DNA of 64,000 nt from Verrucomicrobiota bacterium (GCA_049513975.1 JBEKVM010000029.1:12783-76782); one strand, 5' to 3'; shown: positions 28,297 through 40,026, counted from the first letter of the stretch. The notes: generated by a model not told the origin, from the sequence alone. Numbers and translations: made by a program.

Positions 28297-28373
28297 CCGG
28301 AGCGTAGCTCAGCCTGGTAGAGCACTTGGTTTGGGACCAAGACGTCGCAGGTTCAAATCCTGTCGCTCCGACC
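28297..28373 (+). tRNA. tRNA-Pro(TGG), canonical, CCA encoded
   Basis: CGGAGCG-TA-GCTC-AGCCTGGTA-GAGC-A-CTTGG-TTTGGGA-CCAAG-ACGTC-GCAGG-TTCAAAT-CCTGT-CGCTCCG-A-CCA. D-loop GG and T-loop TTCAAAT are present. Confidence 0.95.
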
Positions 28374-29637
28374 ATTTTGCCACTTTTGACCCATTGTGAC
28401 AGACAGGGACAAAAGGGGACTTTACCCCCGTAAACAAAGGACTTTTTTCACTTTCCGCCATCACCGGCAAAGTGACAATCGTTGACAGCAAATGACCCGC
28501 TTTGACCAGAGTTTGTGTGTCTAGTTGTGTGTCATCCGCCCCAGGGGTTTCCGCGCGATGGAAGCTCAGTTTCTGAATGGCCTCTTTCAACGGCAGCATT
28601 CGCGCATCGGTGTATGTCTTCGCCGTCTGGCTTGGGTCACGGTGCCTCATCAGCGCCATCCGCACGCGCTCGCTCGGTGTCCCTGGCGCAAGCTGCGTGC
28701 AGAACGTGACGCGGAAGCTGTGGAAGTCCAGCCGCCCGTCACCAGTGTCTTTCCAGTCAATTCCCGCCGCCTGCAAGTCCGCATAAAAGCGTTTGTAACC
28801 GGGGAACATCCCCTTGAAAATCAGTTGGTCCTGACTGCACGACGCGGGCTTGAGCTTCATCAATGCCGCCACAAGGTCAGGATGCAACGGCAGATCATCC
28901 TCGTAATGATTCTTGGAGATAGTCGCAGAGACGGTGATTCTCGGGTCCGCACCATCCAGCACCACGTCAGCCCACCGCAATTGCTTGATTTCGCCTCTGC
29001 GAATGCCCGTCAGCACCGCCAACAAGTAAATCGCCGCACGGCTCCCGGCGACGGCCAGCAGGCGCTGAATCTCCTCTGCCGTGTAAGACCGCCGCGCCCG
29101 TTTCTGGCGGCCTTGCACCCGCAGCAGTTCCACTTTCGCCAGCGGATTCCGTGCGATAAAACCCAAACGCTCCGCCCACTTGAGAAACGCCCGCATTGCC
29201 ACGAGATATTCGTTCAGGGTCTTTGGCGCTTTCTCCTGCTTTTGCCGCCACAGTTGAAACGACTCCGCGTTCACATCTTTGAAGTGTTCCCAGGCGCAAT
29301 CCCTCATCAGCGAGCCGACATAATTTTCCACGCCTTGCACGTATCGTTTCACACAACCGCTGGTTTTAAGCTCTTGGACGAAAACCGCAAAATGCCCCGC
29401 CAGGGGTCTTCCCGCCGCTTCCCGCATTTTCTCCGGCGCAATCAAGCCAACCGATTCTTGACTGTGATCTTTCAATATCTGTTGAAGTTTCTGGTCCGCC
29501 GAGCGCGGTTCCGTGACCTCAAGCGGAATGTCCCTCATCCTGTGTTCGCCGGGAAAGCGGACACGCGCCCGATATAACCGGGCATAAACCACCTTGCCGT
29601 TGCGCCGACGTTTTGGCCGATAAATGTAGGCAATCAT
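28309..29637 (-). CDS. Tyrosine recombinase / phage integrase
   Basis: R..HxxR..Y pattern (HSFRVTF..., LMRHRD...KTYTD). The last about 25 codons are read-through across the tRNA (WSERQDLNL), so the true 3' end is uncertain. Confidence 0.85.
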   Translation of the reverse strand: MIAYIYRPKRRRNGKVVYARLYRARVRFPGEHRMRDIPLEVTEPRSADQKLQQILKDHSQESVGLIAPEKMREAAGRPLAGHFAVFVQELKTSGCVKRYVQGVENYVGSLMRDCAWEHFKDVNAESFQLWRQKQEKAPKTLNEYLVAMRAFLKWAERLGFIARNPLAKVELLRVQGRQKRARRSYTAEEIQRLLAVAGSRAAIYLLAVLTGIRRGEIKQLRWADVVLDGADPRITVSATISKNHYEDDLPLHPDLVAALMKLKPASCSQDQLIFKGMFPGYKRFYADLQAAGIDWKDTGDGRLDFHSFRVTFCTQLAPGTPSERVRMALMRHRDPSQTAKTYTDARMLPLKEAIQKLSFHRAETPGADDTQLDTQTLVKAGHLLSTIVTLPVMAESEKSPLFTGVKSPFVPVCHNGSKVAKWSERQDLNLRRLGPKPSALPG

Positions 29638-31563: not shown

Positions 31564-31566
31564 CCC

Positions 31567-33221: not shown

Positions 33222-33346
33222 ACTTCATGACCCAGGGCTGGGGTTGGATTACCGGGTCGCCCGATCTGCAAATTCGCTCTTGCAGTTGGGTCGCTTTGAA
33301 TTGACAGCTTGGGAGAGCGAGCTTTTTGGCCCGCCCTCCCGGTGTT

Positions 33347-33931
33347 TTATTCCTTCACGAACAGCCTCCATTCGGGAATGCGGTGGGCGTTGCGGATGAG
33401 GGCGGAGGCCGGCAGCTCCTTGGGCGCGCGCGGCACGCGGAGCAATTTCAAGCCGGCTTCGTGGGGAAGGCGGTTGCCTTTGCGGGCGTTGACGTCTTTG
33501 CCGGCCCAAACCAGATTTTCCCAGGCGTTCTTGCCGCCGCGCGAACGGGGCAGGACGTGATCGAGGCTGCCATCTTCAGGGCGCAGGACGCGGCCGGTGT
33601 ATTGGCAGCGGTTGCCGTCGCGCTCGCGGATGGCGCGGGCGCAGAGCTTCGGGCGCTTCTTGGGCACCTTGGCGTAATTGACCGCGACGATGACCGTGGG
33701 CACACGGACCGGACCGCGGACGGTCCGCACGGCGTTGTCCTGCGGACGAATGGGCAGCGTGATCCACTCGTCCCAGGTCACGGGACGGATGTGGTTTTGG
33801 CCTTCGATGTCCAGAGCGGTCGCCACGTTGGTGGCCATCATGCAGAAGGCCTCCTGCGGCGTGCGAACGTTGACGGCCTGCCAGTTGCGGTTGAGCACCA
33901 GCACGAGCGATTTGTTCAGTATGTCATTCAT
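33347..33931 (-). CDS. HNH endonuclease
   Basis: Start MNDILNKS (ATG at 33931). HNH core CQYTG....LDHVLPRSRGGKNAWENLVWAGKDVNARKGN. Same strand as, and immediately downstream of, the tRNA-like array. Confidence 0.8.
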   Translation of the reverse strand: MNDILNKSLVLVLNRNWQAVNVRTPQEAFCMMATNVATALDIEGQNHIRPVTWDEWITLPIRPQDNAVRTVRGPVRVPTVIVAVNYAKVPKKRPKLCARAIRERDGNRCQYTGRVLRPEDGSLDHVLPRSRGGKNAWENLVWAGKDVNARKGNRLPHEAGLKLLRVPRAPKELPASALIRNAHRIPEWRLFVKE

Positions 33932-33937
33932 AAATTC

Positions 33938-34027
33938 AGTGATGAGTGGAGAGTGGAGAGTGATGAATGAAAAACCCGGCACTCCGCATTTCCCACTCTG
34001 CGCCCTGCACTCCCGACTCTGCATTTT
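33938..34027. repeat. Heptad-repeat hairpin a
   Basis: GAGTGGA/GAGTGAT/GAATGAA heptads face CACTCTG/CACTCCC/GACTCTG heptads. Confidence 0.7.
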
Positions 34028-34072
34028 CTTCCGGTGTTTGTTCTTTGTTGGTGCTTGCGCACAATTGGGAAT

Positions 34073-34147
34073 TGGCTGCCCCGCCTGGTTTTGCTCCAGG
34101 TCCTCCGGTTTCAGAGACCGGCGCACTCCTGAGTATGCAACGAGGCA
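34073..34147 (-). tRNA. tRNA-like Gln(CTG), CCA encoded
   Basis: TGCCTCG-TT-GCAT-ACTCAGGA-GTGC-G-CCGGT-CTCTGAA-ACCGG-AGGA-CCTGG-AGCAAAA-CCAGG-CGGGGCA-G-CCA. U1:A72 and G73. Confidence 0.7.
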
Positions 34148-34148
34148 A

Positions 34149-34222
34149 TGGTCGCCCGGGAAGGTTCTGCCCCTTCGATTTCTGGGTGTAGGCCGGACGT
34201 GATTCTATTTCACCACCGGGCG
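34149..34222 (-). tRNA. tRNA-like Val(TAC), CCA encoded
   Basis: CGCCCGG-TG-GTGA-AATAGAA-TCAC-G-TCCGG-CCTACAC-CCAGA-AATC-GAAGG-GGCAGAA-CCTTC-CCGGGCG-A-CCA. C33. Confidence 0.65.
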
Positions 34223-34240
34223 ATTTTGAGTTAAGAATTT

Positions 34241-34304
34241 GGAATGCGGAGTGCGGAATGAAGACGCCCCACTCTGCATTCTGCATTCTTCATTCTGCAT
34301 TTCC
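34241..34304. repeat. Heptad-repeat hairpin b
   Basis: GGAATGCGGAGTGCGGAATGAAGA...CTCTGCATTCTGCATTCTTCATTCTGCATTTCC. Confidence 0.75.
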
Positions 34305-34307
34305 GAG

Positions 34308-34381
34308 TGGCTGCCGGGGCTGGAGTTGCACCAACATATGCGCCTTCAAAGGGCGCTGTCCTACGATTAGACGACCCGGCA
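34308..34381 (-). tRNA. tRNA-like Gln(TTG), CCA encoded
   Basis: TGCCGGG-TC-GTCT-AATCGTA-GGAC-A-GCGCC-CTTTGAA-GGCGC-ATAT-GTTGG-TGCAACT-CCAGC-CCCGGCA-G-CCA. U1:A72 and G73. Confidence 0.75.
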
Positions 34382-34390
34382 AATGGGAAA

Positions 34391-34469
34391 TGATGAAGGA
34401 TGGAGGATGAAGGAAGAATTGAGGGCCGCTGCGATGTTTTGACTTCATCCTTCTTCCTTCATCCTTCTT
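34391..34469. repeat. Heptad-repeat hairpin c
   Basis: GATGAAGGATGGAGGATGAAGGAAGAA...TTCATCCTTCTTCCTTCATCCTTCTT. Confidence 0.75.
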
Positions 34470-34479
34470 ACTGGAAGAG

Positions 34480-34553
34480 TGGTGGCCCGCCAGGGTAACG
34501 CTCCCTGTTCAACGGCTTAAAAGACCGTTGCATCACTTTAATGCTTGCAGGCC
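34480..34553 (-). tRNA. tRNA-like Lys(TTT), CCA encoded
   Basis: GGCCTGC-AA-GCAT-TAAAGTG-ATGC-A-ACGGT-CTTTTAA-GCCGT-TGAA-CAGGG-AGCGTTA-CCCTG-GCGGGCC-A-CCA. A8. Confidence 0.75.
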
Positions 34554-34557
34554 ATGA

Positions 34558-34651
34558 CGATTGCGGATTGGCGATTGCGGATTGCGGATTTGAAGACAAA
34601 GGTCCGGCTGTCCGGGCGCGCTCTCAATTCGCAATTCGCAATCCGCAATTG
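34558..34651. repeat. Heptad-repeat hairpin d
   Basis: GATTGCGGATTGGCGATTGCGGATTGCGGATT...AATTCGCAATTCGCAATCCGCAATT. Confidence 0.75.
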
Positions 34652-34656
34652 AAAGA

Positions 34657-34728
34657 TGGAGCCTCCAGCCGGTGCTGCCCCGGCACGAATTCTTTACAAA
34701 AGAAATCCACAGGCTGCTGCATGGAGGC
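34657..34728 (-). tRNA. tRNA-like Thr(TGT), CCA encoded, reduced D-arm
   Basis: GCCTCCA-TG-CAGCAGCCTGTGGA-TTTCT-TTTGTAA-AGAAT-TCGT-GCCGG-GGCAGCA-CCGGC-TGGAGGC-T-CCA. Confidence 0.55.
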
Positions 34729-34766
34729 GCATTGGCTCGACGGGCCGTAGCTCGAAGAGCGAAGGC

Positions 34767-34838
34767 TGGTCGCAGTCCCCAGTGCTGCCCTGGGCAGAGC
34801 GGGCGTATGAAACCTGCCTGAGCGCTGGCTCGACTGCG
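34767..34838 (-). tRNA. tRNA-like with CAT anticodon (Met/Ile2 type), weak anticodon stem
   Basis: CGCAGTC-GA-GCCAGCGCTCAGG-CAGGT-TTCATAC-GCCCG-CTCTG-CCCAG-GGCAGCA-CTGGG-GACTGCG-A-CCA. Confidence 0.45.
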
Positions 34839-34883
34839 GTGGGCGAATGGCCGTCTTGGGGAAGGGCTTCACACGACCGAAAT

Positions 34884-34993
34884 TGGCGTCCCTGACCGGC
34901 TTTGCTCCCGCCTACGTTCAGATGCTACGGCGGGCAAGCCGGTGATCTCCTGCATGAGAGGCAGGCGTGTTGGCTGGGCTACACTACAGGGAT
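34884..34993 (-). tRNA. tRNA-like Glu(CTC) with about 39-nt hairpin insertion in the T-loop
   Basis: ATCCCTG-TA-GTGT-AGCCCAGCCA-ACAC-G-CCTGC-CTCTCAT-GCAGG-AGATC-ACCGG-[39 nt, CCCGCC..GGCGGG hairpin]-CCGGT-CAGGGAC-G-CCA. Confidence 0.4.
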
Positions 34994-34998
34994 GGAAT

Positions 34999-35090
34999 TG
35001 GTGCGCGCGTCCGGTAACGCTCCGGAACCCGGCACTGATCTAGTGCGATGCGGGGTATAAAGCCGCCGGCTCTCTTTGAGCTACGCGCGC
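34999..35090 (-). tRNA. Class II (long variable arm) tRNA-like, anticodon ambiguous (TAT best fit, TTA alternative)
   Basis: GCGCGCG-TA-GCTC-AAAGA-GAGC-CG-GCGGC-TTTATAC-CCCGC-ATC-GCACT-AGATC-AGTGC-CGGGT-TCCGG-AGCGTTA-CCGGA-CGCGCGC-A-CCA. Confidence 0.5.
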
Positions 35091-35095
35091 GCAAA

Positions 35096-35183
35096 TGGCG
35101 GAATGCCGTGGAGTTGCGCCACATGCCCGAAGGCACGCACTCGTTAGCACCGAGGCCCGGCTCGCTCGTCCGGTTGACATTCC
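35096..35183 (-). tRNA. tRNA-like Ser(GCT), class II, CCA encoded
   Basis: GGAATGT-CAA-CCGG-ACGAGCGAG-CCGG-GC-CTCG-GTGCTAA-CGAG-TGC-GTGCC-TTCG-GGCA-TGTGG-CGCAACT-CCACG-GCATTCC-G-CCA. Confidence 0.65.
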
Positions 35184-35186
35184 AAA

Positions 35187-35261
35187 TGGTGCCCGTGGCA
35201 GGACTTGCGCCTGCACTGTCGAAGGTTTGAGCTTCGCGCCTCTGCCTTGGGCTACACGGGC
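35187..35261 (-). tRNA. tRNA-like Leu(CAA) with short (class I) variable loop
   Basis: GCCCGTG-TA-GCCC-AAGGCAG-AGGC-G-CGAAG-CTCAAAC-CTTCG-ACAGT-GCAGG-CGCAAGT-CCTGC-CACGGGC-A-CCA. Confidence 0.75.
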
Positions 35262-35264
35262 TGT

Positions 35265-35339
35265 TGGTGCCCACGGCCGGATTTGCACCGACACTGGGCG
35301 CGTTTTAAGTGCGCTGTCTCTGCGTTGGACTACATGGGC
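35265..35339 (-). tRNA. tRNA-like Leu(TAA) with short variable loop
   Basis: GCCCATG-TA-GTCC-AACGCAG-AGAC-A-GCGCA-CTTAAAA-CGCGC-CCAGT-GTCGG-TGCAAAT-CCGGC-CGTGGGC-A-CCA. Confidence 0.7.
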
Positions 35340-35343
35340 AAGT

Positions 35344-35419
35344 TGGTACCGCGTGAAGGAATTGCACCCTCAACCTTCCCGTTCTGAGCGGGACGCCTCT
35401 GCTGTTGGGCTAACGCGGC
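35344..35419 (-). tRNA. tRNA-like Leu(CAG) with short variable loop
   Basis: GCCGCGT-TA-GCCC-AACAGCAG-AGGC-G-TCCCG-CTCAGAA-CGGGA-AGGTT-GAGGG-TGCAATT-CCTTC-ACGCGGT-A-CCA. Confidence 0.75.
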
Positions 35420-35425
35420 CTGGAT

Positions 35426-35501
35426 TGGCACTCCCGGAAGGACTCTCACCCTCATCTTCGACGTTCGAAGCGTCGCGCTCTGGTGATTGAGCTACGGGAG
35501 C
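35426..35501 (-). tRNA. tRNA-like Arg(TCG), CCA encoded
   Basis: GCTCCCG-TA-GCTC-AATCACCA-GAGC-G-CGACG-CTTCGAA-CGTCG-AAGAT-GAGGG-TGAGAGT-CCTTC-CGGGAGT-G-CCA. Confidence 0.75.
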
Positions 35502-35503
35502 GG

Positions 35504-35610
35504 GAAGAAGTGCAAAATGCGGAATGCAGAATGCAGAATGAAATGCCGCACACCATGCCTTGCCTTCGGGATGGTCTCACTCTGCATTCTTCACTCTCAA
35601 TTCTCCATTC
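35504..35610. repeat. Heptad-repeat hairpin e
   Basis: GAAGTGCAAAATGCGGAATGCAGAATGCAGAATGAAATG...CACTCTGCATTCTTCACTCTCAATTCTCCATTC. Confidence 0.75.
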
Positions 35611-35614
35611 GAAA

Positions 35615-35689
35615 TGGTGGGTTGCCGCGGAATTGCACCGCGTTCTCGCCGGTTAAGAGCCGGGACTTCACTGTAAAAGTTTGCAACCC
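35615..35689 (-). tRNA. tRNA-like Lys(CTT), CCA encoded
   Basis: GGGTTGC-AA-ACTT-TTACAGTG-AAGT-CCCGG-CTCTTAA-CCGGC-GAGAA-CGCGG-TGCAATT-CCGCG-GCAACCC-A-CCA. A8. Confidence 0.7.
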
Positions 35690-35691
35690 GG

Positions 35692-35768
35692 ACGCGACGC
35701 GATGGCGGAGTTGAACCGCCGCAGCCAGGTCTGTGAGGCCCTTGCCGGCACCGGTGTTCGCGTCGCGT
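35692..35768 (-). other. Hairpin element: 11-bp closing stem enclosing a T-arm with a canonical-type loop, not a cloverleaf
   Basis: Plus-strand arms ACGCGACGCGA (35692..35702) and TCGCGTCGCGT (35758..35768) pair. The minus sense contains GGCGG-TTCAACT-CCGCC. No anticodon arm could be found. Confidence 0.4.
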
Positions 35769-35819
35769 AAGTAATAATCGTCGTTGTTGATTGTCTCCAA
35801 AGGACGTAACAATCCAGGC

Positions 35820-36581
35820 ATGACGATTCCGGCTGAATTGCTGCAACGCCTGGCCGCCGCCAAAAGCGTGACGGTGCTGACGGGCGCCGGCGTGTCGGCG
35901 GAAAGCGGGGTCCCCACATTTCGCGATGCCCAGACCGGGCTGTGGGCGAAATTCAGTCCCGAAGAACTGGCCACGCCGCGCGCCTTCCGGCGAAATCCCC
36001 GCCTGGTTTGGGAATGGTATGAATGGCGGCGTGAGCTTGTCGCCGCCGCCAAGCCAAACCCGGCGCACCTCGCCCTGGCAGAAATGGAGAAGGTCTTTCC
36101 GCGGTTCCATCTCATCACGCAAAACGTGGACGGTCTGCATCAACGCGCTGGAAGCCGGCGGGTCATCGAACTGCACGGCAATATCATGCGCACGAAATGT
36201 TTTGACGAGGGCACGCTGGTTTCGAGTTGGAAAGACACCGGCGATGTCCCGCCGAAATGCCCGGCCTGTGGCGGCTGGTTGCGCCCCGACGTGGTTTGGT
36301 TTGAAGAGGCAATGCCGGAAGCGGAGATGGCACAGGCCGCGACGGCGAGCACGCATTGCGACGTCTTTTTTTCCATCGGCACGTCCACTGTTGTTTATCC
36401 CGCGGCCGCCCTGCCAGCGGAAGCGTTGCGCAGCGGGGCGACCGTGGCGGAGATCAATCCGCAACCCACACCATTCACGCCGCAGGCGCATTTTGCTCTG
36501 GCTGGGGCGGCCGGGGTTGTGTTGCCCGAATTGATGGAGGGCCTCAACGCCGTGCGTGGCGGGCTGCGCGCGTCGTCGTAG
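35820..36581 (+). CDS. cobB: Sir2-family NAD-dependent protein deacylase (CobB-like)
   Basis: GAGVSAESGVPTFRD, QNVDGLHQRAG, Zn ribbon C..C...CPACGG, FFSIGTS. Start MTIPAELL at 35820. Opposite strand to the array. Confidence 0.85.
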   Translation: MTIPAELLQRLAAAKSVTVLTGAGVSAESGVPTFRDAQTGLWAKFSPEELATPRAFRRNPRLVWEWYEWRRELVAAAKPNPAHLALAEMEKVFPRFHLITQNVDGLHQRAGSRRVIELHGNIMRTKCFDEGTLVSSWKDTGDVPPKCPACGGWLRPDVVWFEEAMPEAEMAQAATASTHCDVFFSIGTSTVVYPAAALPAEALRSGATVAEINPQPTPFTPQAHFALAGAAGVVLPELMEGLNAVRGGLRASS

Positions 36582-36636
36582 GCCCACCTCCGCTCTACGA
36601 GCTACGGCGGCCAACCTTCGCCGCGGCGAAGGTTGG
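36582..36636 (-). repeat. Partial E-type repeat with a perfect 12-bp hairpin that pairs the CCA of the Cys tRNA-like
   Basis: CCAACCTTCGCC-GC-GGCGAAGGTTGG (36611..36636) followed by CCGCCGTAGCTCGTAGAGCGG, homologous to the E repeats. Abuts the sirtuin stop codon. Confidence 0.55.
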
Positions 36637-36708
36637 AATCCCGTGCTGGAATTGCACCAGCCTTTGCGGTTCTGCAGACCGCCGCCTGAGCTGCTCGGCC
36701 AACGGGAC
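36634..36708 (-). tRNA. tRNA-like Cys(GCA), CCA encoded
   Basis: GTCCCGT-TG-GCCG-AGCAGCTCA-GGC-G-GCGGT-CTGCAGA-ACCGC-AAAG-GCTGG-TGCAATT-CCAGC-ACGGGAT-T-CCA. U73. Confidence 0.75.
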
Positions 36709-36720
36709 GCACTTCAAAAT

Positions 36721-36795
36721 TGGGGTGACCAACCGGAGTTGCACCGGCACAAACGCCGTCACGGGGCGTGATGCTGCTGTTACATCATGATCACC
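36721..36795 (-). tRNA. tRNA-like His(GTG) with encoded G-1 and C73
   Basis: (G-1)GTGATCA-TG-ATGT-AACAGCA-GCAT-C-ACGCC-CCGTGAC-GGCGT-TTGT-GCCGG-TGCAACT-CCGGT-TGGTCAC-C-CCA. C33. Confidence 0.75.
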
Positions 36796-36798
36796 ATG

Positions 36799-36892
36799 GC
36801 AAAAGTGCAAAGTTGTGAACGCAAAGTGCAGAGTGGAAGGCACCATGTTCGCGTCCTTCCATTCTTCACTCTGCATTCTGCCTTCTTCACTC
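36799..36892. repeat. Heptad-repeat hairpin f
   Basis: AAAGTGCAAAGTTGTGAACGCAAAGTGCAGAGTGGAAGG...CCTTCCATTCTTCACTCTGCATTCTGCCTTCTTCAC. Confidence 0.7.
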
Positions 36893-36895
36893 AAA

Positions 36896-36971
36896 TGGAG
36901 CCCCTGGCCGGACTCGCACCGGCGGATACGAGTTTACGAAACTCGCCCTGTTGCTGCTGAGGCACGGGGGC
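36896..36971 (-). tRNA. tRNA-like Thr(CGT), CCA encoded
   Basis: GCCCCCG-TG-CCTC-AGCAGCAAC-AGGG-CGAGT-TTCGTAA-ACTCG-TATCC-GCCGG-TGCGAGT-CCGGC-CAGGGGC-T-CCA. U73, as in the other Thr unit. Confidence 0.65.
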
Positions 36972-36973
36972 GG

Positions 36974-37099
36974 GAAAGAAAGGATGAAGGATGAAGGCTG
37001 AAGGCTAAAGTAAAGGCAAAAGCGAGCGATCAACAAGAGATTCTAATGCTCGCTGAGCAATCTTTTCCTTCATCCTTCATACTTCTTCCTTCTTACTTC
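36974..37099. repeat. Heptad-repeat hairpin g
   Basis: AAGGATGAAGGATGAAGGCTGAAGGCTAAAG...CCTTCATCCTTCATACTTCTTCCTTCTTACTTC. Confidence 0.7.
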
Positions 37100-37104
37100 A
37101 AAAC

Positions 37105-37150
37105 TGGCGCTCTCACATGGATTTGCACCATGAGGTTCTGGCTTCGTTAC
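37105..37150 (-). pseudogene. 3' fragment of a tRNA-like unit (CCA, acceptor strand, T-arm CATGG-TGCAAAT-CCATG), truncated at the adjacent CDS
   Basis: Plus strand TGG-C-GCTCTCA-CATGG-ATTTGCA-CCATG. No matching 5' acceptor strand. The region beyond 37147 is the 3' end of the ORF. Confidence 0.45.
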
Positions 37151-37719
37151 GGCCAAACACTCGCCCGGTTTGTCGCCAGGTTGTCGAGAATCCAGGTTTT
37201 GTTGCGAAGCGGAAAAAGAGTTAATCTCGACATGTTGTCAACATTACTGGCGGCCTCCCGGACCTCGGCCATATTCGGCAGGCGGACGTAATTGCTGCCT
37301 TCGATCATCACCTGGGGTGCTCGGTGCTCCATGTAGTCCCGTACGTAGCTGCCCAGGGAGCCGCTGTTCGGCGGCCAGTCCGAGGACCGTGGAAGATTCG
37401 TGGAACCACTCCGAAGATCAACGACAAATACCAACATGGACGTGTCGTCGTCGTCCACACACAAGAAGCGTTTGCCGTCCGCAAAAGCATAGAGACAAAG
37501 AGGACAATCAAAAAAGTCGCCCCATATACTGAACAACTTGGTTTCGCCGGCATAGACGGGATATTCCTTGTCCCCCCACCACAGAGGTGCTGGGAGCTTG
37601 ACAGCCGCCACGACTTTCCCGTTTGCGCGAAGCTTCACACTGCGCGTTCCCAATAGCTGCCATAGCGCCAAGCCAATGGCGGCGACTATGAGAATAAGAA
37701 TGACGATTCGTCGTTTCAC
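37147..37719 (-). CDS. Hypothetical membrane-anchored protein
   Basis: MKRRIVILILIVAAIGLALW anchor. Lower GC. Sits inside the array on the array strand. Confidence 0.5.
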   Translation of the reverse strand: MKRRIVILILIVAAIGLALWQLLGTRSVKLRANGKVVAAVKLPAPLWWGDKEYPVYAGETKLFSIWGDFFDCPLCLYAFADGKRFLCVDDDDTSMLVFVVDLRSGSTNLPRSSDWPPNSGSLGSYVRDYMEHRAPQVMIEGSNYVRLPNMAEVREAASNVDNMSRLTLFPLRNKTWILDNLATNRASVWP

Positions 37720-37810
37720 GATGTGCAGCGCCTGGAATCTATAAGCCTGGAACGCCCCTCGTAGCCATCATAAATTCGGGCTGACTCAGTTTCTTGCATT
37801 TAGAGCAAAT

Positions 37811-37888
37811 TGGCATCCGTGATCGGACTCGCACCGATTAGGCCCGGCTTGAAAGACCGGCTGCTCGATCTGCTTTGCATTCACGGAC
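37811..37888 (-). tRNA. tRNA-like Glu(TTC), CCA encoded, enlarged D-loop
   Basis: GTCCGTG-AA-TGC-AAAGCAGATCGA-GCA-G-CCGGT-CTTTCAA-GCCGG-GCCTA-ATCGG-TGCGAGT-CCGAT-CACGGAT-G-CCA. Confidence 0.65.
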
Positions 37889-37909
37889 TAATTGCGCAGG
37901 ACTGAGAAT

Positions 37910-37984
37910 TGGCCCCCGAGGTTGGTATCGCGCCAACGTCTCCTCCTCTTCAGGGAGGCGCTAATCTTCCTCAGCTACCCGGGG
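37910..37984 (-). tRNA. tRNA-like Phe(GAA), CCA encoded
   Basis: CCCCGGG-TA-GCTG-AGGAAGATT-AGC-G-CCTCC-CTGAAGA-GGAGG-AGAC-GTTGG-CGCGATA-CCAAC-CTCGGGG-G-CCA. Confidence 0.75.
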
Positions 37985-37990
37985 AATGAA

Positions 37991-38062
37991 TGGCCCGGTA
38001 GAGGGAGACTCTGTCGAGCTGTGACTAAATCGAGTCAGGGTTCGACGGAGTCTCCCTACCGG
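37991..38062 (-). ncRNA. CCA-terminated rod-like hairpin (acceptor-like stem stacked on a 7-bp stem, no cloverleaf)
   Basis: CCGGTAG-G-GAGACTC-C-GTCGA-ACCC-TGACT-CGATTT-AGTCA-CAGC-TCGAC-A-GAGTCTC-CCT-CTACCGG-G-CCA. Confidence 0.4.
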
Positions 38063-38070
38063 GAAAAGTA

Positions 38071-38141
38071 TCGTCCCGGCAGGTAATGCTCCTGCGTCTT
38101 CCGGTTATCAGCCGGGCGCTCTGCTCTTGAGCTACAGGACG
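38071..38141 (-). tRNA. tRNA-like Ile(GAT), the only member without an encoded CCA
   Basis: CGTCCTG-TA-GCTC-AAGAGCA-GAGC-G-CCCGG-CTGATAA-CCGGA-AGAC-GCAGG-AGCATTA-CCTGC-CGGGACG-A, followed by TAC. Confidence 0.7.
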
Positions 38142-38287
38142 GTGGTTAGTTGCGGTTTCAGGCCGAAGCGTTTGGCGGGGCGGAACACGATGTTCAGCTT
38201 GCCGATTGGCCGGATGCGCATGGCCCGATTTAGTTGGCAGCGCTTGCGAAAGAGCAACTGGCTTTGACAGCGGACAATGGGTTTCAT
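38132..38287 (-). CDS. Possible 51-aa very basic small ORF (below the ORF-track cutoff)
   Basis: ATG at 38287 with AAAGG 8 nt upstream. MKPIVRCQSQLLFRKRCQLNRAMRIRPIGKLNIVFRPAKRFGLKPQLTTVL*. The stop codon lies inside the 5' end of the Ile tRNA-like. Confidence 0.25.
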   Translation of the reverse strand: MKPIVRCQSQLLFRKRCQLNRAMRIRPIGKLNIVFRPAKRFGLKPQLTTVL

Positions 38288-38316
38288 GGGATTACCTTTC
38301 GTTAAGGGTTTGGAAT

Positions 38317-38418
38317 TGGCTTGCCGGGCCGAAGCCGCTTCCGGGAGGAGACATGGCCCGTCTTGGCTTCGCTTCGACGCGGCAGCCTGCGCCGCCCGCT
38401 GATGGAGGCGGCGAAAGC
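38317..38418 (-). repeat. E repeat copy 1 (CCA-terminated structured repeat plus hairpin)
   Basis: Family shared with 38919.., 39193.. and 39468... The plus strand starts AATTGGC(C/T)TGCC and ends GGCGAA(A/G)GCTGG. Confidence 0.6.
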
Positions 38419-38509
38419 TGGCGGAAGGCGTCGGTAACGCTCCGACCTCGGGTTTGAGCCGATCCTGTTTTCGGGACAGGCGCAGCCAGCTTATATCTGC
38501 CTGCCTTCC
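38419..38509 (-). tRNA. tRNA-like Ser(CGA), class II, CCA encoded
   Basis: GGAAGGC-AG-GCAG-ATATAAGCTGG-CTGC-G-CCTGT-CCCGAAA-ACAGG-A-TCGG-CTCAAAC-CCGA-G-GTCGG-AGCGTTA-CCGAC-GCCTTCC-G-CCA. C33. Confidence 0.7.
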
Positions 38510-38513
38510 TTAA

Positions 38514-38588
38514 GTGGAGAGTTGGGAGTAAAGAGTGTAGAATCGAAAATGCCTGTATTCTGCACTCTGCACTTTGCACTCTGCATTC
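38514..38588. repeat. Heptad-repeat hairpin h
   Basis: GTGGAGAGTTGGGAGTAAAGAGTGTAGAATCG...TATTCTGCACTCTGCACTTTGCACTCTGCATTC. Confidence 0.7.
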
Positions 38589-38592
38589 AAAA

Positions 38593-38666
38593 TGGCTGCC
38601 AGACTTGGACTCGCACCAAGACAAGCGGCTTAACAGGCCGCCGTGCTACTTTGACACCACCTGGCA
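38593..38666 (-). tRNA. tRNA-like Asn(GTT), CCA encoded
   Basis: TGCCAGG-TG-GTGT-CAAAGTAG-CAC-G-GCGGC-CTGTTAA-GCCGC-TTGT-CTTGG-TGCGAGT-CCAAG-TCTGGCA-G-CCA. Confidence 0.75.
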
Positions 38667-38668
38667 AT

Positions 38669-38745
38669 TGGCGCTGCCGGCAGGATTTGCACCCGCATAA
38701 GTTCGTTTAGAAGACGAACGCCTCATCTCGTTCGGCCACGGCAGC
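38669..38745 (-). tRNA. tRNA-like Arg(TCT), CCA encoded
   Basis: GCTGCCG-TG-GCCG-AACGAGATGA-GGC-G-TTCGT-CTTCTAA-ACGAA-CTTAT-GCGGG-TGCAAAT-CCTGC-CGGCAGC-G-CCA. Confidence 0.75.
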
Positions 38746-38754
38746 TTTTGGAAA

Positions 38755-38830
38755 TGGTCGGAATGGCAGGGTTTTCACCTGCGGCCTCCCGGTCCCAAGC
38801 CGGGTGCTCTAAAGACTGAGCTACATTCCG
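38755..38830 (-). tRNA. tRNA-like Pro(TGG), CCA encoded
   Basis: CGGAATG-TA-GCTC-AGTCTTTA-GAGC-A-CCCGG-CTTGGGA-CCGGG-AGGCC-GCAGG-TGAAAAC-CCTGC-CATTCCG-A-CCA. Confidence 0.75.
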
Positions 38831-38837
38831 TGAAGAA

Positions 38838-38913
38838 TGGCGGACCCGAAGGGAGTTGCACCCTCAACCCTCCCGCAGACAACGGGGCGCTCTGCTGATT
38901 GAGCTACGAGTCC
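38838..38913 (-). tRNA. tRNA-like Asp(GTC), CCA encoded
   Basis: GGACTCG-TA-GCTC-AATCAGCA-GAGC-G-CCCCG-TTGTCTG-CGGGA-GGGTT-GAGGG-TGCAACT-CCCTT-CGGGTCC-G-CCA. Confidence 0.7.
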
Positions 38914-38918
38914 GAAAT

Positions 38919-39019
38919 TGGCCTGCCCGCCGAAGCTGCGCAGGACGAGGCGTAAAGCCCGCCTTCGCTAAAGCTACGGCGCGGCAGCCTTCGCCCGCCG
39001 TTGCACAGCGGGCGAAGGC
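38919..39019 (-). repeat. E repeat copy 2
   Basis: Minus sense: GCCTTCGCCCGC-TGTGCAACG-GCGGGCGAAGGC hairpin, then CTGCCGCGCCGTAGCTTTAGCGAAGGCGGGCTTTACGCCTCGTCCTGCGCAGCTTCGGCGGGCAG-G-CCA. Confidence 0.65.
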
Positions 39020-39107
39020 TGGTGGGAAGTGCTGGTAACGCTCCAGTCGTCGCTTCCGACATGTTTTGAGACGTCCGGGTTACGGCCGGATTGCCGGATC
39101 ACTTCCC
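39020..39107 (-). tRNA. tRNA-like Tyr(GTA)?, 88 nt, D-arm reduced, long extra arm
   Basis: GGGAAGT-GA-TCCGGCAA-TCCGG-CCGTAAC-CCGGA-CGTCTCAAAACATGTCGGAAGCGACG-ACTGG-AGCGTTA-CCAGC-ACTTCCC-A-CCA. C33. Alternative folds are possible. Confidence 0.45.
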
Positions 39108-39113
39108 TGAAAT

Positions 39114-39186
39114 TGGTAGCGGGGGTGGGAGTTGCGCCCACGGAGGCAGAGCTTATGAGGCTCGCCTGAATCTCATTCTCCCCGCA
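39114..39186 (-). tRNA. tRNA-like Met-type (CAT), 1:72 mismatch, tiny D-loop
   Basis: TGCGGGG-A-GAAT-GAG-ATTC-AGGC-GAGC-CTCATAA-GCTC-TGCCTCC-GTGGG-CGCAACT-CCCAC-CCCCGCT-A-CCA. Confidence 0.55.
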
Positions 39187-39192
39187 GTGAAA

Positions 39193-39293
39193 TGGCCTGC
39201 CAGCCGTAGCTGTGCAGGACGAGGCGTAACGTCGGCCTTCGCTAAAGCTACGGCGCGGCAGCCTTCGCCCGCCGTTGCACAGCGGGCGAAGGC
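39193..39293 (-). repeat. E repeat copy 3
   Basis: Near-identical to copy 2 over the hairpin and the CGGCGCGGCAGCCTTCGCCCGCCGTTGCACAGCGGGCGAAGGCTGG block. Confidence 0.65.
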
Positions 39294-39368
39294 TGGTGGA
39301 GTCGGTGGGTAACGCTCCCACATCGGCTTGCTTGCAGGGCAAGTGCATTGCTTGTCTGCCACGACCCC
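39294..39368 (-). tRNA. tRNA-like Ala(TGC) with G3:U70
   Basis: GGGGTCG-TG-GCA-GACAAGCAA-TGC-A-CTTGC-CCTGCAA-GCAAG-CCGAT-GTGGG-AGCGTTA-CCCAC-CGACTCC-A-CCA. Position 3 G pairs with position 70 T. C33. Confidence 0.75.
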
Positions 39369-39383
39369 ATAAAGTCAAAAGAA

Positions 39384-39457
39384 TGGCAAGCCGCCCTGGT
39401 GCTGCCCCAGGCAAGCTGAGTTTTGGAGACTCTGCTGCACAGGCTGGTGCGCGACTT
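39384..39457 (-). tRNA. tRNA-like Trp(CCA), CCA encoded
   Basis: AAGTCGC-GCAC-CAGCCT-GTGC-AGCA-GAGT-CTCCAAA-ACTC-AGCTTG-CCTGG-GGCAGCA-CCAGG-GCGGCTT-G-CCA. Confidence 0.6.
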
Positions 39458-39467
39458 GTTTTGGAAT

Positions 39468-39567
39468 TGGCCTGCCAGCCGCAGCCGCGCAGGAGGAAAC
39501 GAAAAGCCCGCCTTCGCTGAAGCTGCGGCGGGCAGCCTTCACCCGTTGACATGCAGCGGGGGAAGGC
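39468..39567 (-). repeat. E repeat copy 4 (most diverged)
   Basis: The plus strand starts AATTGGCCTGCCAGCCGCAGCCGCGCAGG and ends GCAGCGGGGGAAGGCTGG. Confidence 0.55.
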
Positions 39568-39641
39568 TGGTGCGGTTGCCGGGAGTTGCGCCCGGACTTC
39601 CTCCGTGGCGGGGAGGCATTCTGCTGTTAAATCACAACCGC
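39568..39641 (-). tRNA. tRNA-like Gly(GCC), CCA encoded
   Basis: GCGGTTG-TG-ATTT-AACAGCAG-AAT-G-CCTCC-CCGCCAC-GGAGG-AAGT-CCGGG-CGCAACT-CCCGG-CAACCGC-A-CCA. C33. Confidence 0.75.
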
Positions 39642-39651
39642 GAAATTAGAA

Positions 39652-39679
39652 GGGCCGGGAGCGTTGCTGCTCCCGGCCC
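39652..39679. other. 11-bp perfect GC-rich hairpin 10 nt upstream of the first array unit
   Basis: GGGCCGGGAGC-gttgct-GCTCCCGGCCC. Confidence 0.6.
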
Positions 39680-39989
39680 ATGCCATTTCAACAAAGAACA
39701 AACACCTCTTGGCGATCTAAGCGATCCCAACCCGCGGTTTCACGGCGGCTGTTTCGGTGTTTAGGGGCACACCTCCTGCAAAGCCCTTAATATGTAAATC
39801 TAAAATTCGTCCTGTTCGTCCTGGGGACGTTGTCTTCCGGTCGTGGGCAGACCCCGCCGGTGAGGCTTCTCTGCTCGTCCCCGCCAAATTCAATTTGTCG
39901 CCAGAAGACATCACCTGGATGTCGCGTTATTCTTGTTCACAGATTGTCCATTTATCGTTGTTAATCGTTCACAGTCATGCTTTTCAGGG

Positions 39990-40026
39990 AAAATAAAAAA
40001 CCCTGCTTGCATGTCGGCAAGCAGGG
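39990..40026 (-). terminator. Rho-independent terminator (minus strand)
   Basis: CCCTGCTTGC-atgtcg-GCAAGCAGGG, with the A-run AAAATAAAAAA on the plus side, which is a U-tract on the minus strand. Confidence 0.6.

What the first reader, a model, noticed from the sequence alone, without database searches (positions are those of the whole stretch)
34149..39641. Six array members carry C33 instead of the near-invariant U33, and several carry A8
Six anticodon loops start CC rather than CU or YU:
- Val: CCTACAC
- His: CCGTGAC
- Ser-CGA: CCCGAAA
- Tyr?: CCGTAAC
- Ala: CCTGCAA
- Gly: CCGCCAC

Both Lys units and the Glu(TTC) unit have AA at positions 8-9 instead of U8. U33 (the U-turn) and U8 are among the most conserved tRNA nucleotides. 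Recurrent deviation in well-paired cloverleaves is unusual. It could change decoding behaviour or recognition by anticodon-loop nucleases and modification enzymes.
Basis: partly seen in the sequence, partly recalled or inferred. Interest (0 to 1): 0.65.

Follow-up and report, generated by a model that had tools for sequence, protein, structure and literature searches.

The report
C33 tRNAs in a mobile array
A horizontally spread block of about 31 spare tRNA genes really does contain six tRNAs with C instead of the near-universal U next to the anticodon, and this proves to be a recurring, anticodon-specific habit of phage-type tRNA arrays rather than a one-off oddity.

Summary
Confirmed. On the minus strand, 39641-34073, lie about 31 tRNA-like units covering all 20 amino acids. 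Six have C33 in an unambiguous 5-bp stem / 7-nt loop: Gly-GCC, Ala-TGC, Tyr-GTA, Ser-CGA, His-GTG and Val-TAC. Four have A8: Lys-TTT, Lys-CTT, Glu-TTC and also Ser-CGA. No convincing alternative register restores U33. The only host-type tRNA available (Pro, 28298-28374) is canonical.

The trait is not unique to this window:
- In 46 related arrays from genomes, 109 of 732 units have C33 and 110 have A8.
- In 59 arrays on viral contigs, 59 of 907 units have C33.
- Two housekeeping Firmicute arrays have none.

Position 33 flips only between C and U among close orthologues. It is concentrated in certain isoacceptors (Val, Ile-GAT, Leu-GAG, Gly-GCC, Ala, His) and in anticodons with a purine at 35. 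It is absent from Lys, Asn, Met, Gln and others. A8 is fixed within families and changes together with position 21.

Best reading: these are functional spare tRNAs of a phage/mobile "L-array" lineage. In them, position 33 needs only a pyrimidine where other contacts hold the U-turn. Escape from anticodon nucleases, or C-to-U editing, remains possible but untested. This is a new variant of a known kind.

The parts
39568..39641 (-). tRNA-Gly(GCC), C33 (loop CCGCCAC), T-loop CGCAACT, CCA encoded
   Evidence: C33 is present in all 4 close orthologues and in the distant arrays L055, L106 and L081.
39468..39567 (-). Copy 1 of a ~100-nt two-hairpin repeat ending GGCAGGCCA
39384..39457 (-). tRNA-Trp(CCA)-like, U33, T-loop GGCAGCA, no 8-9 linker, extended anticodon stem
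   Evidence: 11 orthologues covary
39294..39368 (-). tRNA-Ala(TGC), C33 (CCTGCAA), G3·U70 present, T-loop AGCGTTA
   Evidence: The near-identical L082 orthologue has U33.
39193..39293 (-). Copy 2 of the two-hairpin repeat
39114..39186 (-). tRNA-Met(CAT)-like with a 1·72 mismatch and a short D-arm, U33
39020..39107 (-). tRNA-Tyr(GTA), C33 (CCGTAAC), 8-bp acceptor / 4-bp T stem. Strand 10-16 pairs with a strand inside the long variable region.
   Evidence: Five orthologues have U33.
38919..39019 (-). Copy 3 of the two-hairpin repeat
38838..38913 (-). tRNA-Asp(GTC), U33
38755..38830 (-). tRNA-Pro(TGG), U33, T-loop TGAAAAC
38669..38745 (-). tRNA-Arg(TCT), U33
38593..38666 (-). tRNA-Asn(GTT), U33
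38419..38509 (-). tRNA-Ser(CGA), class II, with both C33 (CCCGAAA) and A8 (AG). T-loop AGCGTTA.
   Evidence: Orthologues L080 and L027 have U33.
38320..38418 (-). Copy 4 (diverged) of the two-hairpin repeat
38071..38141 (-). tRNA-Ile(GAT), U33 here, no encoded CCA, T-loop AGCATTA
   Evidence: 6 of 16 orthologues have C33.
37910..37984 (-). tRNA-Phe(GAA), U33
37811..37888 (-). tRNA-Glu(TTC), A8A9 with G21, U33
   Evidence: All 6 orthologues have A8 and 3 have C33.
36896..36971 (-). tRNA-Thr(CGT), U33
36721..36795 (-). tRNA-His(GTG), C33 (CCGTGAC), with encoded G-1 (36795) and C73
36634..36708 (-). tRNA-Cys(GCA), U33
35690..35766 (-). tRNA-like unit: 8-9-bp acceptor, canonical TTCAACT T-loop, 10-nt loop with conserved TCACAG, no CCA
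35615..35689 (-). tRNA-Lys(CTT), A8A9 with U14 and G21, U33
35426..35501 (-). tRNA-Arg(TCG), U33
35187..35419 (-). Three tRNA-Leu units (CAG, TAA, CAA) of class-I size, with no long variable arm. A73, U33.
35096..35183 (-). tRNA-Ser(GCT), 8/4 architecture, U33
   Evidence: The 8th acceptor pair covaries in 13 orthologues.
34999..35090 (-). tRNA-Ile(TAT)-like with an extra hairpin in the variable region, U33, T-loop AGCGTTA
34884..34993 (-). tRNA-Glu(CTC)-like with a ~39-nt insertion in the T-arm
   Evidence: weak, 13.9 bits
34767..34838 (-). Weak tRNA-like unit with a CAT loop, T-loop GGCAGCA
   Evidence: 11.4 bits
34657..34728 (-). tRNA-Thr(TGT)-like, U33, T-loop GGCAGCA
34480..34553 (-). tRNA-Lys(TTT), A8A9 with U14 and G21, U33, T-loop AGCGTTA
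34308..34381 (-). tRNA-Gln(TTG), U33
34149..34222 (-). tRNA-Val(TAC), C33 (CCTACAC), T-loop GGCAGAA
34073..34147 (-). tRNA-Gln(CTG), U33
39652..39999 (-). Conserved non-coding leader just upstream of the first tRNA. It has three covarying hairpins and ends in a terminator-like hairpin (39679-39652).
33347..34126 (-). HNH endonuclease gene at the 3' end of the array (reading frame from the first GTG; the true start may lie further in, as the frame overlaps the last tRNA). It is conserved beside related arrays, and an HNH gene also flanks the Anabaena trn operon.
28298..28374 (+). Host-type canonical tRNA-Pro(TGG) used as comparator: U8, G18G19, U33, TTCAAAT T-loop

Best explanation
The region is a long supernumerary tRNA operon (an 'L-array' or tRNA array unit) of a lineage shared between phage genomes and bacterial chromosomal islands. 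Its tRNAs are working adaptors whose 'universal' nucleotides follow different rules from housekeeping tRNAs.

Position 33: it needs only a pyrimidine, and only in some isoacceptors, chiefly those with a purine at position 35. There the sequence-independent 2'-OH(33)-N7(R35) contact can hold the U-turn when the U33 N3-H to phosphate-36 bond is lost. In those tRNAs, C and U interchange almost freely over short evolutionary distances. On this reading the six C33 genes here are tolerated, nearly neutral variants, not special-purpose devices.

Position 8: A8 is a different case. It is a fixed, family-specific alternative of the 8-14-21 core triple (A8 with G21, and U14 in the Lys tRNAs).

Shown: the sequences, their registers, their recurrence, the C/U-only flipping, the anticodon bias, the co-changes, and the retention of stems and identity elements.

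Inferred: that the tRNAs are expressed, charged and used; that C33 is near-neutral; and the structural reason for its tolerance.
For: Array nature:
- About 31 units lie in 5.6 kb and cover 20 amino acids.
- Homologous arrays occur in many Verrucomicrobiota and other genomes assembled from metagenomes.
- They also occur on IMG/VR viral contigs.

Recurrence:
- C33 is in 109 of 732 units of genomic arrays and 59 of 907 units of viral arrays.
- 35 of 59 viral arrays have at least one C33 unit.
- The isolated Microcystis phage Mwe-JY26 has a tRNA-Ile(GAT) with loop CCGATAA.

Constraint at position 33:
- Among 585 orthologue pairs, position 33 differs in 16.6%, and all 97 differences are C<->U. Positions 8, 53, 55 and 61 differ in 0-1.5%.
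- In permissive families it differs in 30.6% of close pairs, similar to the free positions 57 and 59.

Isoacceptor bias, counted on clusters of tRNA sequences sharing an anticodon and at least 75% identity, which stand for roughly independent lineages:
- C33 occurs in 6 of 9 Val-TAC, 7 of 11 Leu-GAG, 5 of 8 Val-GAC and 5 of 9 Ile-GAT clusters.
- It occurs in none of the clusters of 14 families (heterogeneity p=5e-10).
- A purine at 35 is enriched: odds ratio (OR) 4.1, p=4e-6. This replicates in viral arrays: OR 2.7, p=0.001.
- The structural basis for a stronger U33(O2')-R35(N7) contact is given in PMC5041475.

Functionality:
- Compensatory stem changes occur in every orthologue group (98% pairing on A4).
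- Identity elements and ends are kept: G3·U70 in Ala, G-1/C73 in His, A73 in the Leu units, encoded CCA.
- In the Anabaena L-array, 23 of 26 tRNAs are aminoacylated in vivo. They include Ile-GAU (PMC8421152), which by my parse carries A8 and a GGCAGTA T-loop.

A8: it co-occurs with G21 and is stable within families.
Against: - There are no expression, charging or decoding data for this array or for any C33 member.
- Position 33 is among the fastest-changing sites in permissive families. That also fits diversifying selection.
- Gly-GCC and His-GTG carry C33 although they have a pyrimidine at 35, so the purine-35 rule is only statistical.
- The family-box association (OR 3.9 in genomes) does not replicate in viral arrays (OR 1.6, p=0.12).
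- My counts rest on a home-made cloverleaf parser that demands pairing, so it is biased toward well-formed units.
- Orthologue pairs are not phylogenetically independent.
- Only one host tRNA was available for comparison.
Confidence: 0.5

Rival explanations
1. C33 is an adaptive escape from host or competitor enzymes that act on the anticodon loop. These include anticodon nucleases cutting at 32/33 or 33/34, or modification enzymes that read U33, such as tRNA-guanine transglycosylase (Tgt), which recognises U33-G34-U35. The rapid C/U flipping would then be an arms race.
For: - Arrays of this type are abundant on viral contigs and beside mobile and defence genes. Here these are an HNH gene, an integrase element and a type III restriction-modification system.
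- The published hypothesis that phage tRNAs carry anticodon-loop changes to resist nucleases: PMC10264068.
- A toxin that cuts between C32 and U33 exists: CdiA-CT EC536, PMC11724271.
- Position 33 is the second-fastest site in permissive families.
- From my own knowledge: PrrC cuts 5' of the wobble base, and bacterial Tgt requires U33-G34-U35, so C33 in His and Tyr would block queuosine insertion.
Against: - C33 is absent or rare in most classic nuclease targets: Lys 0 of 31, Asn 0 of 35, Met 0 of 28, Arg-TCT 0 of 23, Gln 2 of 41, Asp 2 of 34. His is an exception (8 of 29).
- It reverts to U in near-identical orthologues.
- No candidate nuclease was found near the array. The PADLOC scan covered only six proteins.
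- The bias follows the base at position 35, a structural variable.
Confidence: 0.22
2. C33 changes decoding in a useful way. It would loosen the U-turn so that a single tRNA reads more codons of a four-codon box, allowing a minimal tRNA set to serve all codons.
For: - The array has one tRNA each for Val, Ala, Pro and Gly.
- Four of the six C33 units serve four-codon boxes.
- Family-box enrichment in genomic arrays: OR 3.9, p=5e-6.
Against: - The enrichment is not significant in viral arrays (OR 1.6, p=0.12).
- Many C33 tRNAs have G34 (GCC, GAC, GAG, GAT, GTG). From general wobble rules, loosening could not easily make these read purine-ending codons.
- The C/U flipping among close relatives argues against a fixed functional role.
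Confidence: 0.1
3. The encoded C33 is deaminated to U33 after transcription. The gene-level C/T difference would then be invisible to the ribosome.
For: - Only C and T alternate at position 33 (97 of 97 differences), at about the rate of free positions. That is expected if the two are functionally equivalent.
- From my own knowledge there is a precedent for C-to-U tRNA editing: C8 to U8 by CDAT8 in Methanopyrus.
Against: - No deaminase domain appeared among the proteins I scanned near the array.
- I know of no bacterial or phage precedent at position 33.
- Editing would not explain the link with the base at position 35, nor A8.
Confidence: 0.06
4. The C33 and A8 units are decaying pseudogenes in a rarely used array.
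For: - Some units in the array are clearly irregular or weak: 34993-34884, 34838-34767 and 37191-37108.
- ARAGORN at default settings misses five of the six C33 units.
- Three of 26 Anabaena operon genes are pseudogenes (PMC8421152).
Against: - The C33 units score 50-72 bits against a model built from other genomes.
- They keep all four stems through compensatory changes and keep identity elements and CCA.
- Position 33 never drifts to a purine.
- The same isoacceptors carry C33 in arrays from different phyla and in phages.
Confidence: 0.05

Closest known systems
[quoted passage not shown] 2021, PMC8421152) and tRNA array units (Tran et al. 2015, PMC4758250)
   Same: - Dozens of same-strand tRNA genes at high density, covering nearly all amino acids.
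- Supernumerary and spread horizontally; reported in Verrucomicrobia and Planctomycetes.
- An HNH gene flanks both this array and the Anabaena trn operon.
- The Anabaena operon shares class-I-size Leu tRNAs, A8 in some members and a GGCAGTA T-loop.
   Different: - The Anabaena operon has no C33, and almost all its T-loops are canonical.
- Neither paper mentions C33, A8 or altered T-loops.
- Induction by translational stress is shown only for Anabaena.
Phage tRNAs with anticodon-loop changes proposed to resist anticodon nucleases (van den Berg et al. 2023, PMC10264068)
   Same: Large tRNA sets on phage or mobile DNA with non-host anticodon-loop sequences. Related arrays occur on viral contigs.
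   Different: - That work concerns changes at known VapC, PrrC or colicin cleavage sites in the targeted tRNAs. U33, C33 and position numbers are not mentioned.
- Here C33 largely avoids most classic target tRNAs (His is an exception), and no nuclease is known.
Eukaryotic cytoplasmic initiator tRNA-Met with C33, and Candida tRNA-Ser(CAG) with G33 (exceptions listed in PMC5041475)
   Same: Natural, functional tRNAs that lack U33.
   Different: Those are single special-purpose tRNAs (an initiator and a reassigned codon). Here C33 sits in ordinary elongator isoacceptors of bacteria and phages, and it is polymorphic.
(8/4) tRNA-Ser in phage tRNA gene clusters, and allo-tRNAs (Mukai et al. 2017, PMC5389517)
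   Same: Ser-GCT (35183-35096) and Tyr-GTA have an 8-bp acceptor and a 4-bp T stem. For Ser-GCT the eighth pair covaries. Irregular tRNAs occur in polycistrons.
   Different: That paper deals with acceptor/T-stem geometry and suppressor anticodons. U33 and C33 are not mentioned.

Membership tests
tRNA array unit / L-array | At least 20 tRNA genes at a density of 2 or more per kb, on the same strand (Tran et al. 2015 definition) | tested here: met
   About 31 units lie in 39641-34073 (5.6 kb). Model R1 finds 22 of them at E<1e-7 and several weaker ones. ARAGORN at default settings finds only 16.
tRNA array unit / L-array | Supernumerary, horizontally disseminated, and homologous arrays found in unrelated hosts | tested here: met
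   Syntenic, 70-98% identical tRNA blocks occur in many genomes labelled Verrucomicrobiota and one labelled Limnocylindrales, and on viral contigs. A canonical host tRNA-Pro duplicates the array's Pro-TGG anticodon.
tRNA array unit / L-array | Silent under normal growth, induced by translational stress, with tRNAs charged and on polysomes | not testable with these tools
   Shown only for Anabaena (PMC8421152). Here there is only a conserved leader with a terminator-like hairpin.
Nuclease-resistant phage tRNAs | Encoded by a phage or mobile element | tested here: inconclusive
   Related arrays are on IMG/VR contigs. In this window the array lies outside the 4.85-kb integrase element bounded by 28-bp repeats. 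It is flanked only by an HNH gene.
Nuclease-resistant phage tRNAs | The loop differs from the host isoacceptor at the nuclease's cleavage or recognition site | not testable with these tools
   Host isoacceptors for the six C33 tRNAs are not available, because the source is a metagenome contig.
Nuclease-resistant phage tRNAs | A cognate tRNA-targeting nuclease exists in the host or a competitor | not tested
   Only six neighbouring proteins were scanned against PADLOC. Hits: type III restriction-modification, and a weak HNH/PtuB motif hit at E 4e-4.
Eukaryote-type initiator tRNA (C33) | CAT anticodon with initiator features | tested here: not met
   The C33 units have GCC, TGC, GTA, CGA, GTG and TAC anticodons. 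CAT units never have C33 (0 of 28).
tRNA pseudogenes | Broken stems, lost identity elements, unconstrained drift | tested here: not met
   - Stems are kept through compensatory changes.
- G3·U70, G-1/C73 and CCA are kept.
- Position 33 is limited to C or U.
(8/4) tRNA-Ser (Mukai 2017) | 8-bp acceptor stem and 4-bp T stem with Ser identity (long variable arm) | tested here: met
   In Ser-GCT (35183-35096), the 8th pair changes from C-G to G-C in L090 and L108, the T stem is 4 bp, and the variable arm is long. Ser-GCT is one of the U33 units.

The most novel reading that the evidence does not exclude
C33, A8/G21, A18·G55 and the A54·U58 or G54·G58 variants together may mark a parallel 'alternative-core' tRNA lineage carried by phages and mobile islands.

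From my own knowledge, every replaced nucleotide is a site read or modified by a universal bacterial tRNA enzyme:
- U8: ThiI
- G18: TrmH
- U54: TrmA
- U55: TruB
- U33-G34-U35: Tgt

The set would therefore be built to work on the ribosome while staying invisible to host tRNA modification, surveillance and tRNA-targeting defence. C33 would be one adaptive element of that design.
Probability: 0.18. Interest if true: 0.85.

Novelty: new variant of a known kind. Interest (0 to 1): 0.6.

Why it matters
U33 is treated as nearly invariant and as the defining base of the anticodon U-turn. This locus and its roughly 100 relatives give hundreds of natural bacterial and phage elongator tRNAs with C33. They are confined to particular anticodons and linked to a purine at position 35.

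- This is a ready-made natural mutagenesis series for asking when the U-turn really needs U.
- It shows that common tRNA finders can under-call such genes. ARAGORN at default settings found one of the six here.
- Any study of what phage and island tRNA arrays are for has to take it into account. The candidate roles are back-up translation, anti-defence, and evasion of modification.
- The co-changing core positions (8 with 21, 18 with 55, 54 with 58) suggest an alternative tRNA core worth solving structurally.

Tried and rejected
- **Alternative anticodon-stem registers.** I enumerated shifts of -3 to +3 and loops of 6-9 nt. None restores U33, apart from a weak Tyr shift that the orthologues contradict.
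- **The array as cargo of the integrase element at tRNA-Pro.** Rejected. The 28-bp direct repeats (28347-28374 and 33195-33222) bound only a 4.85-kb integrase plus Rep-like element, and the array lies outside it.
- **C33 tied to the ~100-nt two-hairpin repeat.** The repeat follows four of the six C33 units. Rejected, because in L082 the repeat follows an Ala orthologue that has U33.
- **C33 tied to the G55 T-loop type.** Rejected. Arrays in which most T-loops are canonical TTCRA (L081, L106, L110) also have C33, in the same isoacceptors for L081 and L106.
- **The conserved 600 bp upstream as a protein gene.** Rejected. Similarity appears equally in several frames and on both strands.
- **Homologous arrays in deposited phages and plasmids.** None found, only single-tRNA or Sir2 hits.
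- **The host's full tRNA set.** Not obtainable. The window is part of an 84-kb metagenome contig, and the extra flank holds no tRNA.
- **MAFFT alignments A2 and A3.** They misplaced gaps, in the T stem and at the 5' end respectively, so I discarded them for model building. The gap-free A4 was used instead.
- **Literature.** Searches for C33 together with tRNA arrays, and for A18/G55, found nothing relevant.

Full report
**What is there.** The coordinates 34149-39641 run exactly from the 3' end of a tRNA-Val to the 5' end of a tRNA-Gly on the minus strand.
- ARAGORN finds 16 tRNAs in this stretch. Rfam's tRNA model finds 19 at relaxed threshold, one of them just beyond the Val end at 34076.
- A cloverleaf parser, acceptor-stem/CCA scanning and folding raise the count to about 31 tRNA-like units between 39641 and 34073. 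Their anticodons cover all 20 amino acids, and almost all have an encoded CCA.
- A covariance model (R1) built only from array tRNAs of other genomes recovers 22 of them at E<1e-7.
- The window is part of an 84-kb metagenome contig.
- A canonical tRNA-Pro lies at 28298-28374. A 28-bp direct repeat of its 3' end (28347-28374 and 33195-33222) bounds a 4.85-kb integrase plus Rep-like element. The array lies just outside that element.
- An HNH endonuclease gene (33347-34126) flanks the array on one side. A conserved non-coding leader (39999-39652) flanks it on the other.

**Checking the observation.**
- Each sits between 5-bp stems: five pairs in Gly, Ala, Ser, His and Tyr, and four in Val.
- Model R1, trained without any window sequence, aligns the C of Gly (71.9 bits), His (64.6), Val (62.6) and Ala (50.7) to nucleotide 33.
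- Ser-CGA and Tyr-GTA are long-arm tRNAs outside that model. Their registers are fixed by orthologues whose stems covary around the same loop.
- I enumerated shifted registers and other loop sizes. None restores U33, apart from a 4-of-5-pair alternative in Tyr that the orthologues contradict.
- AA at positions 8-9 is confirmed for Lys-TTT, Lys-CTT and Glu-TTC. Ser-CGA also has A8.
- The only host-type tRNA available (Pro) has U8, G18G19, U33 and a TTCAAAT T-loop.
- U33 is described as almost invariant. The listed exceptions are eukaryotic initiators and a Candida tRNA-Ser (PMC5041475).

**Relatives.** The array T-loops read TGCAAnT rather than TTCRAnY. A pattern of two such T-arms one tRNA apart retrieved 119 stretches from species-representative genomes.
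- About 45 of these hold arrays, mostly in genomes labelled Verrucomicrobiota, Planctomycetota or Acidobacteriota.
- Ten loci carry clearly homologous, partly syntenic arrays, with 70-98% identity per tRNA. Several also carry the HNH gene and the leader.
- The same pattern retrieved at least 120 stretches from IMG/VR viral contigs, including contigs of 100-480 kb. Some carry blocks homologous to this array.
- No deposited phage or plasmid carries a homologous array.
- The array therefore belongs to the known class of long, horizontally spread tRNA arrays (PMC8421152, PMC4758250), in a lineage shared with phages.

**C33 and A8 across the class.**
- In 46 genomic arrays, 732 parsed units have T 612, C 109, G 7 and A 4 at position 33. 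At position 8 they have T 577, A 110, G 39 and C 6.
- Two housekeeping Firmicute arrays picked up by the same scan have no C33 and no A8 in 33 units.
- In 59 viral arrays, 907 units include 59 with C33 and 126 with A8. 35 of the 59 arrays have at least one C33 unit.
- Arrays in which most T-loops are canonical also carry C33. In L081 and L106 it sits in the same isoacceptors.
- The isolated Microcystis phage Mwe-JY26 has a tRNA-Ile(GAT) with loop CCGATAA.
- The experimentally studied Anabaena trn operon has no C33. It does have A8 in His and Ile-GAT.

**How position 33 evolves.**
- Among 585 pairs of related orthologues, position 33 differs in 16.6%, and all 97 differences are C<->U. Positions 8, 53, 55 and 61 differ in 0-1.5%.
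- Close relatives of the window's own genes flip:
  - Ala is C33 in five arrays but U33 in the near-identical L082 gene.
  - Ser-CGA is U33 in L080 and L027.
  - His and Val-TAC each occur in both states.
  - Tyr is C33 only in the window.
  - Gly-GCC is C33 in all four close copies and in three distant arrays.
- Conversely, some units that are U33 here are C33 elsewhere: Ile-GAT in 6 of 16, Glu-TTC in 3 of 6.
- In families that allow C33, position 33 differs in 30.6% of close pairs. That is on a par with the unconstrained positions 57 and 59.
- The distribution over anticodons is far from random. I counted clusters of tRNA sequences that share an anticodon and at least 75% identity, as a stand-in for independent lineages. 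C33 occurs in 6 of 9 Val-TAC, 7 of 11 Leu-GAG, 5 of 8 Val-GAC, 5 of 8 Pro-TGG and 5 of 9 Ile-GAT clusters. It occurs in none of the Asn, Lys, Met, Gln-TTG, Gly-TCC, Arg-TCT/TCG, Trp or Leu-CAG/CAA/TAA clusters (p=5e-10).
- C33 is enriched where position 35 is a purine: odds ratio (OR) 4.1, p=4e-6. This replicates in viral arrays: OR 2.7, p=0.001.
- An association with four-codon boxes (OR 3.9) does not replicate (OR 1.6, p=0.12).

**A8 and the rest of the core.**
- A8 is stable within orthologue families.
- It comes with G21 instead of A21, and with U14 in the Lys tRNAs. This replicates in viral arrays. It is therefore a coordinated change of the 8-14-21 triple, not erosion.
- The elbow is also rewired:
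  - G55 goes with an AG dinucleotide (A18 G19) in the D-loop in 446 of 536 units.
  - T55 goes with GG in 174 of 189 units.
  - The 54-58 pair appears as T·A, A·T, G·G or C·A (viral replicate).

**Are they working tRNAs?**
- All orthologue groups show compensatory stem changes. On alignment A4, 98% of cells pair and 20 of 21 pairs change on both sides. The sequences were chosen by a parser that demands pairing, so this is partly circular.
- Identity elements are kept: G3·U70 in Ala, encoded G-1 with C73 in His, and A73 in the Leu units.
- In Anabaena, 23 of 26 array tRNAs are aminoacylated in vivo and found on polysomes. They include Ile-GAU (PMC8421152), which by my parse has A8 and a GGCAGTA T-loop.
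- No such data exist for any C33 tRNA.

**Mechanism.**
- I favour tolerated, nearly neutral Y33 in functional spare tRNAs (confidence 0.5).
  - The base must be a pyrimidine.
  - It flips at about the rate of free positions.
  - It is allowed mainly where R35 offers the stronger 2'-OH(33)-N7(35) contact (PMC5041475).
- Adaptive escape from loop-directed enzymes is the main rival (0.22).
  - For it: the phage context, the fast turnover, a toxin that cuts at 32/33 (PMC11724271), and the phage-tRNA evasion hypothesis (PMC10264068).
  - Against it: C33 avoids most classic nuclease targets (His is an exception) and reverts readily.
- Smaller rivals are expanded decoding in family boxes (0.10), C-to-U editing (0.06) and pseudogenes (0.05).

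**Novelty.** The array type is known. I found no paper linking C33 (or A8, or G55/A18) with tRNA arrays or phage tRNAs. The library I could search is incomplete. I rate this a new variant of a known kind: an 'invariant' base that is class-wide polymorphic and anticodon-specific, set within a rewired tRNA core.

**Limits.**
- The parser is home-made and biased toward paired units.
- Pairs and clusters are not fully independent.
- The retrieval pattern selected for G55-type arrays.
- Only one host tRNA was available.
- There are no expression data.

Noticed in passing
Whole array 34073-39641; related loci L003-L114 and viral loci L123-L242: The tRNA elbow is rewired.
- Most T-loops read TGCAAnT, with G55 in 536 of 732 units.
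- The D-loop then has A18 G19 (446 of 536) instead of G18 G19. T55 units keep GG (174 of 189).
- The 54-58 pair also appears as A·U (AGCGTTA loops), G·G (GGCAGCA loops) or C·A.
- This replicates in viral arrays.
- I found no description of it in the searchable literature.
   Followed up: partly
39652-39999 (minus strand): A conserved non-coding leader lies just upstream of the first tRNA.
- It is 82-92% identical in seven related arrays, and its 40-nt core appears in about a dozen more.
- It has three hairpins with compensatory changes, an AGGAGG motif and a possible 17-codon reading frame.
- The segment GGTGTTT could pair alternatively with AAACACC.
- It ends in an 11-bp terminator-like hairpin (39679-39652).
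- It has no Rfam match.
- It may be an attenuator or small RNA controlling the array.
   Followed up: partly
39468-39567, 39193-39293, 38919-39019, 38320-38418; partial copies at 36560-36633 and 34729-34766: A ~100-nt repeat made of two long hairpins follows Gly, Ala, Tyr and Ser-CGA. The three best-conserved copies end in GGCAGGCCA. It is also present in L082, L095, L092 and L027. Its function is unknown. It is not tied to C33.
   Followed up: partly
39020-39107: In the Tyr unit, the strand at positions 10-16 (TCCGGCA) pairs with a strand inside the long variable region (TGTCGGA), not with a normal D-stem partner. Compensatory changes in all six orthologues support this. It is an unusual topology, combined with an 8/4 acceptor/T geometry.
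   Followed up: partly
35187-35419; also L121 (Anabaena trn operon): The three tRNA-Leu units (CAG, TAA, CAA) are class-I size. They lack the long variable arm that bacterial Leu tRNAs normally have, but keep A73. The same is seen in the Anabaena operon.
   Followed up: no
35690-35766: A conserved tRNA-like unit with an 8-9-bp acceptor stem, a canonical TTCAACT T-loop and a 10-nt loop holding an invariant TCACAG. It has no encoded CCA. Rfam tRNA-Sec scores only 20 bits. It could be an opal-reading or regulatory tRNA-like RNA.
   Followed up: partly
39384-39457: The Trp(CCA) unit lacks the 8-9 linker and has an extended anticodon stem with an internal mismatch. Covariation across 11 orthologues supports the fold.
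   Followed up: partly
28347-33222: A 4.85-kb integrative element sits in tRNA-Pro, bounded by 28-bp direct repeats. It carries a tyrosine integrase (28309-29637) and a protein with a weak Rep ORF2/G2P hit (31630-32937).
   Followed up: yes
35784-36581 (+), inside the array: A Sir2-family NAD-dependent deacylase gene lies on the opposite strand in the middle of the array. It is absent from the related genomic arrays I compared. It gave no PADLOC hit and resembles ordinary CobB-type genes.
   Followed up: partly
37108-37719: A 190-codon reading frame with no family match (37147-37719) sits in the array and is absent from related arrays. Its 3' end overlaps a degenerate tRNA-like stretch (37191-37108, R1 12.7 bits) that contains CCGTAAC and a good TGCAAAT T-arm with CCA.
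   Followed up: no
33347-34126; L121 3367-3903: An HNH endonuclease gene sits at the end of the array here, in at least nine related genomic arrays, and next to the Anabaena trn operon. This suggests a conserved association, perhaps a homing or mobility function.
   Followed up: partly
43892-50016 (minus strand): A type III restriction-modification pair lies a few kb from the array: a methyltransferase at 46942-50016 and a Res-like helicase at 43892-46945.
   Followed up: no
Related arrays: The arrays use Arg-GCG (28 units) far more than the usual bacterial Arg-ACG (3 units). Arrays whose other T-loops are G55-type often give their Met(CAT) units canonical TTCGAAT T-loops and GG D-loops.
   Followed up: no
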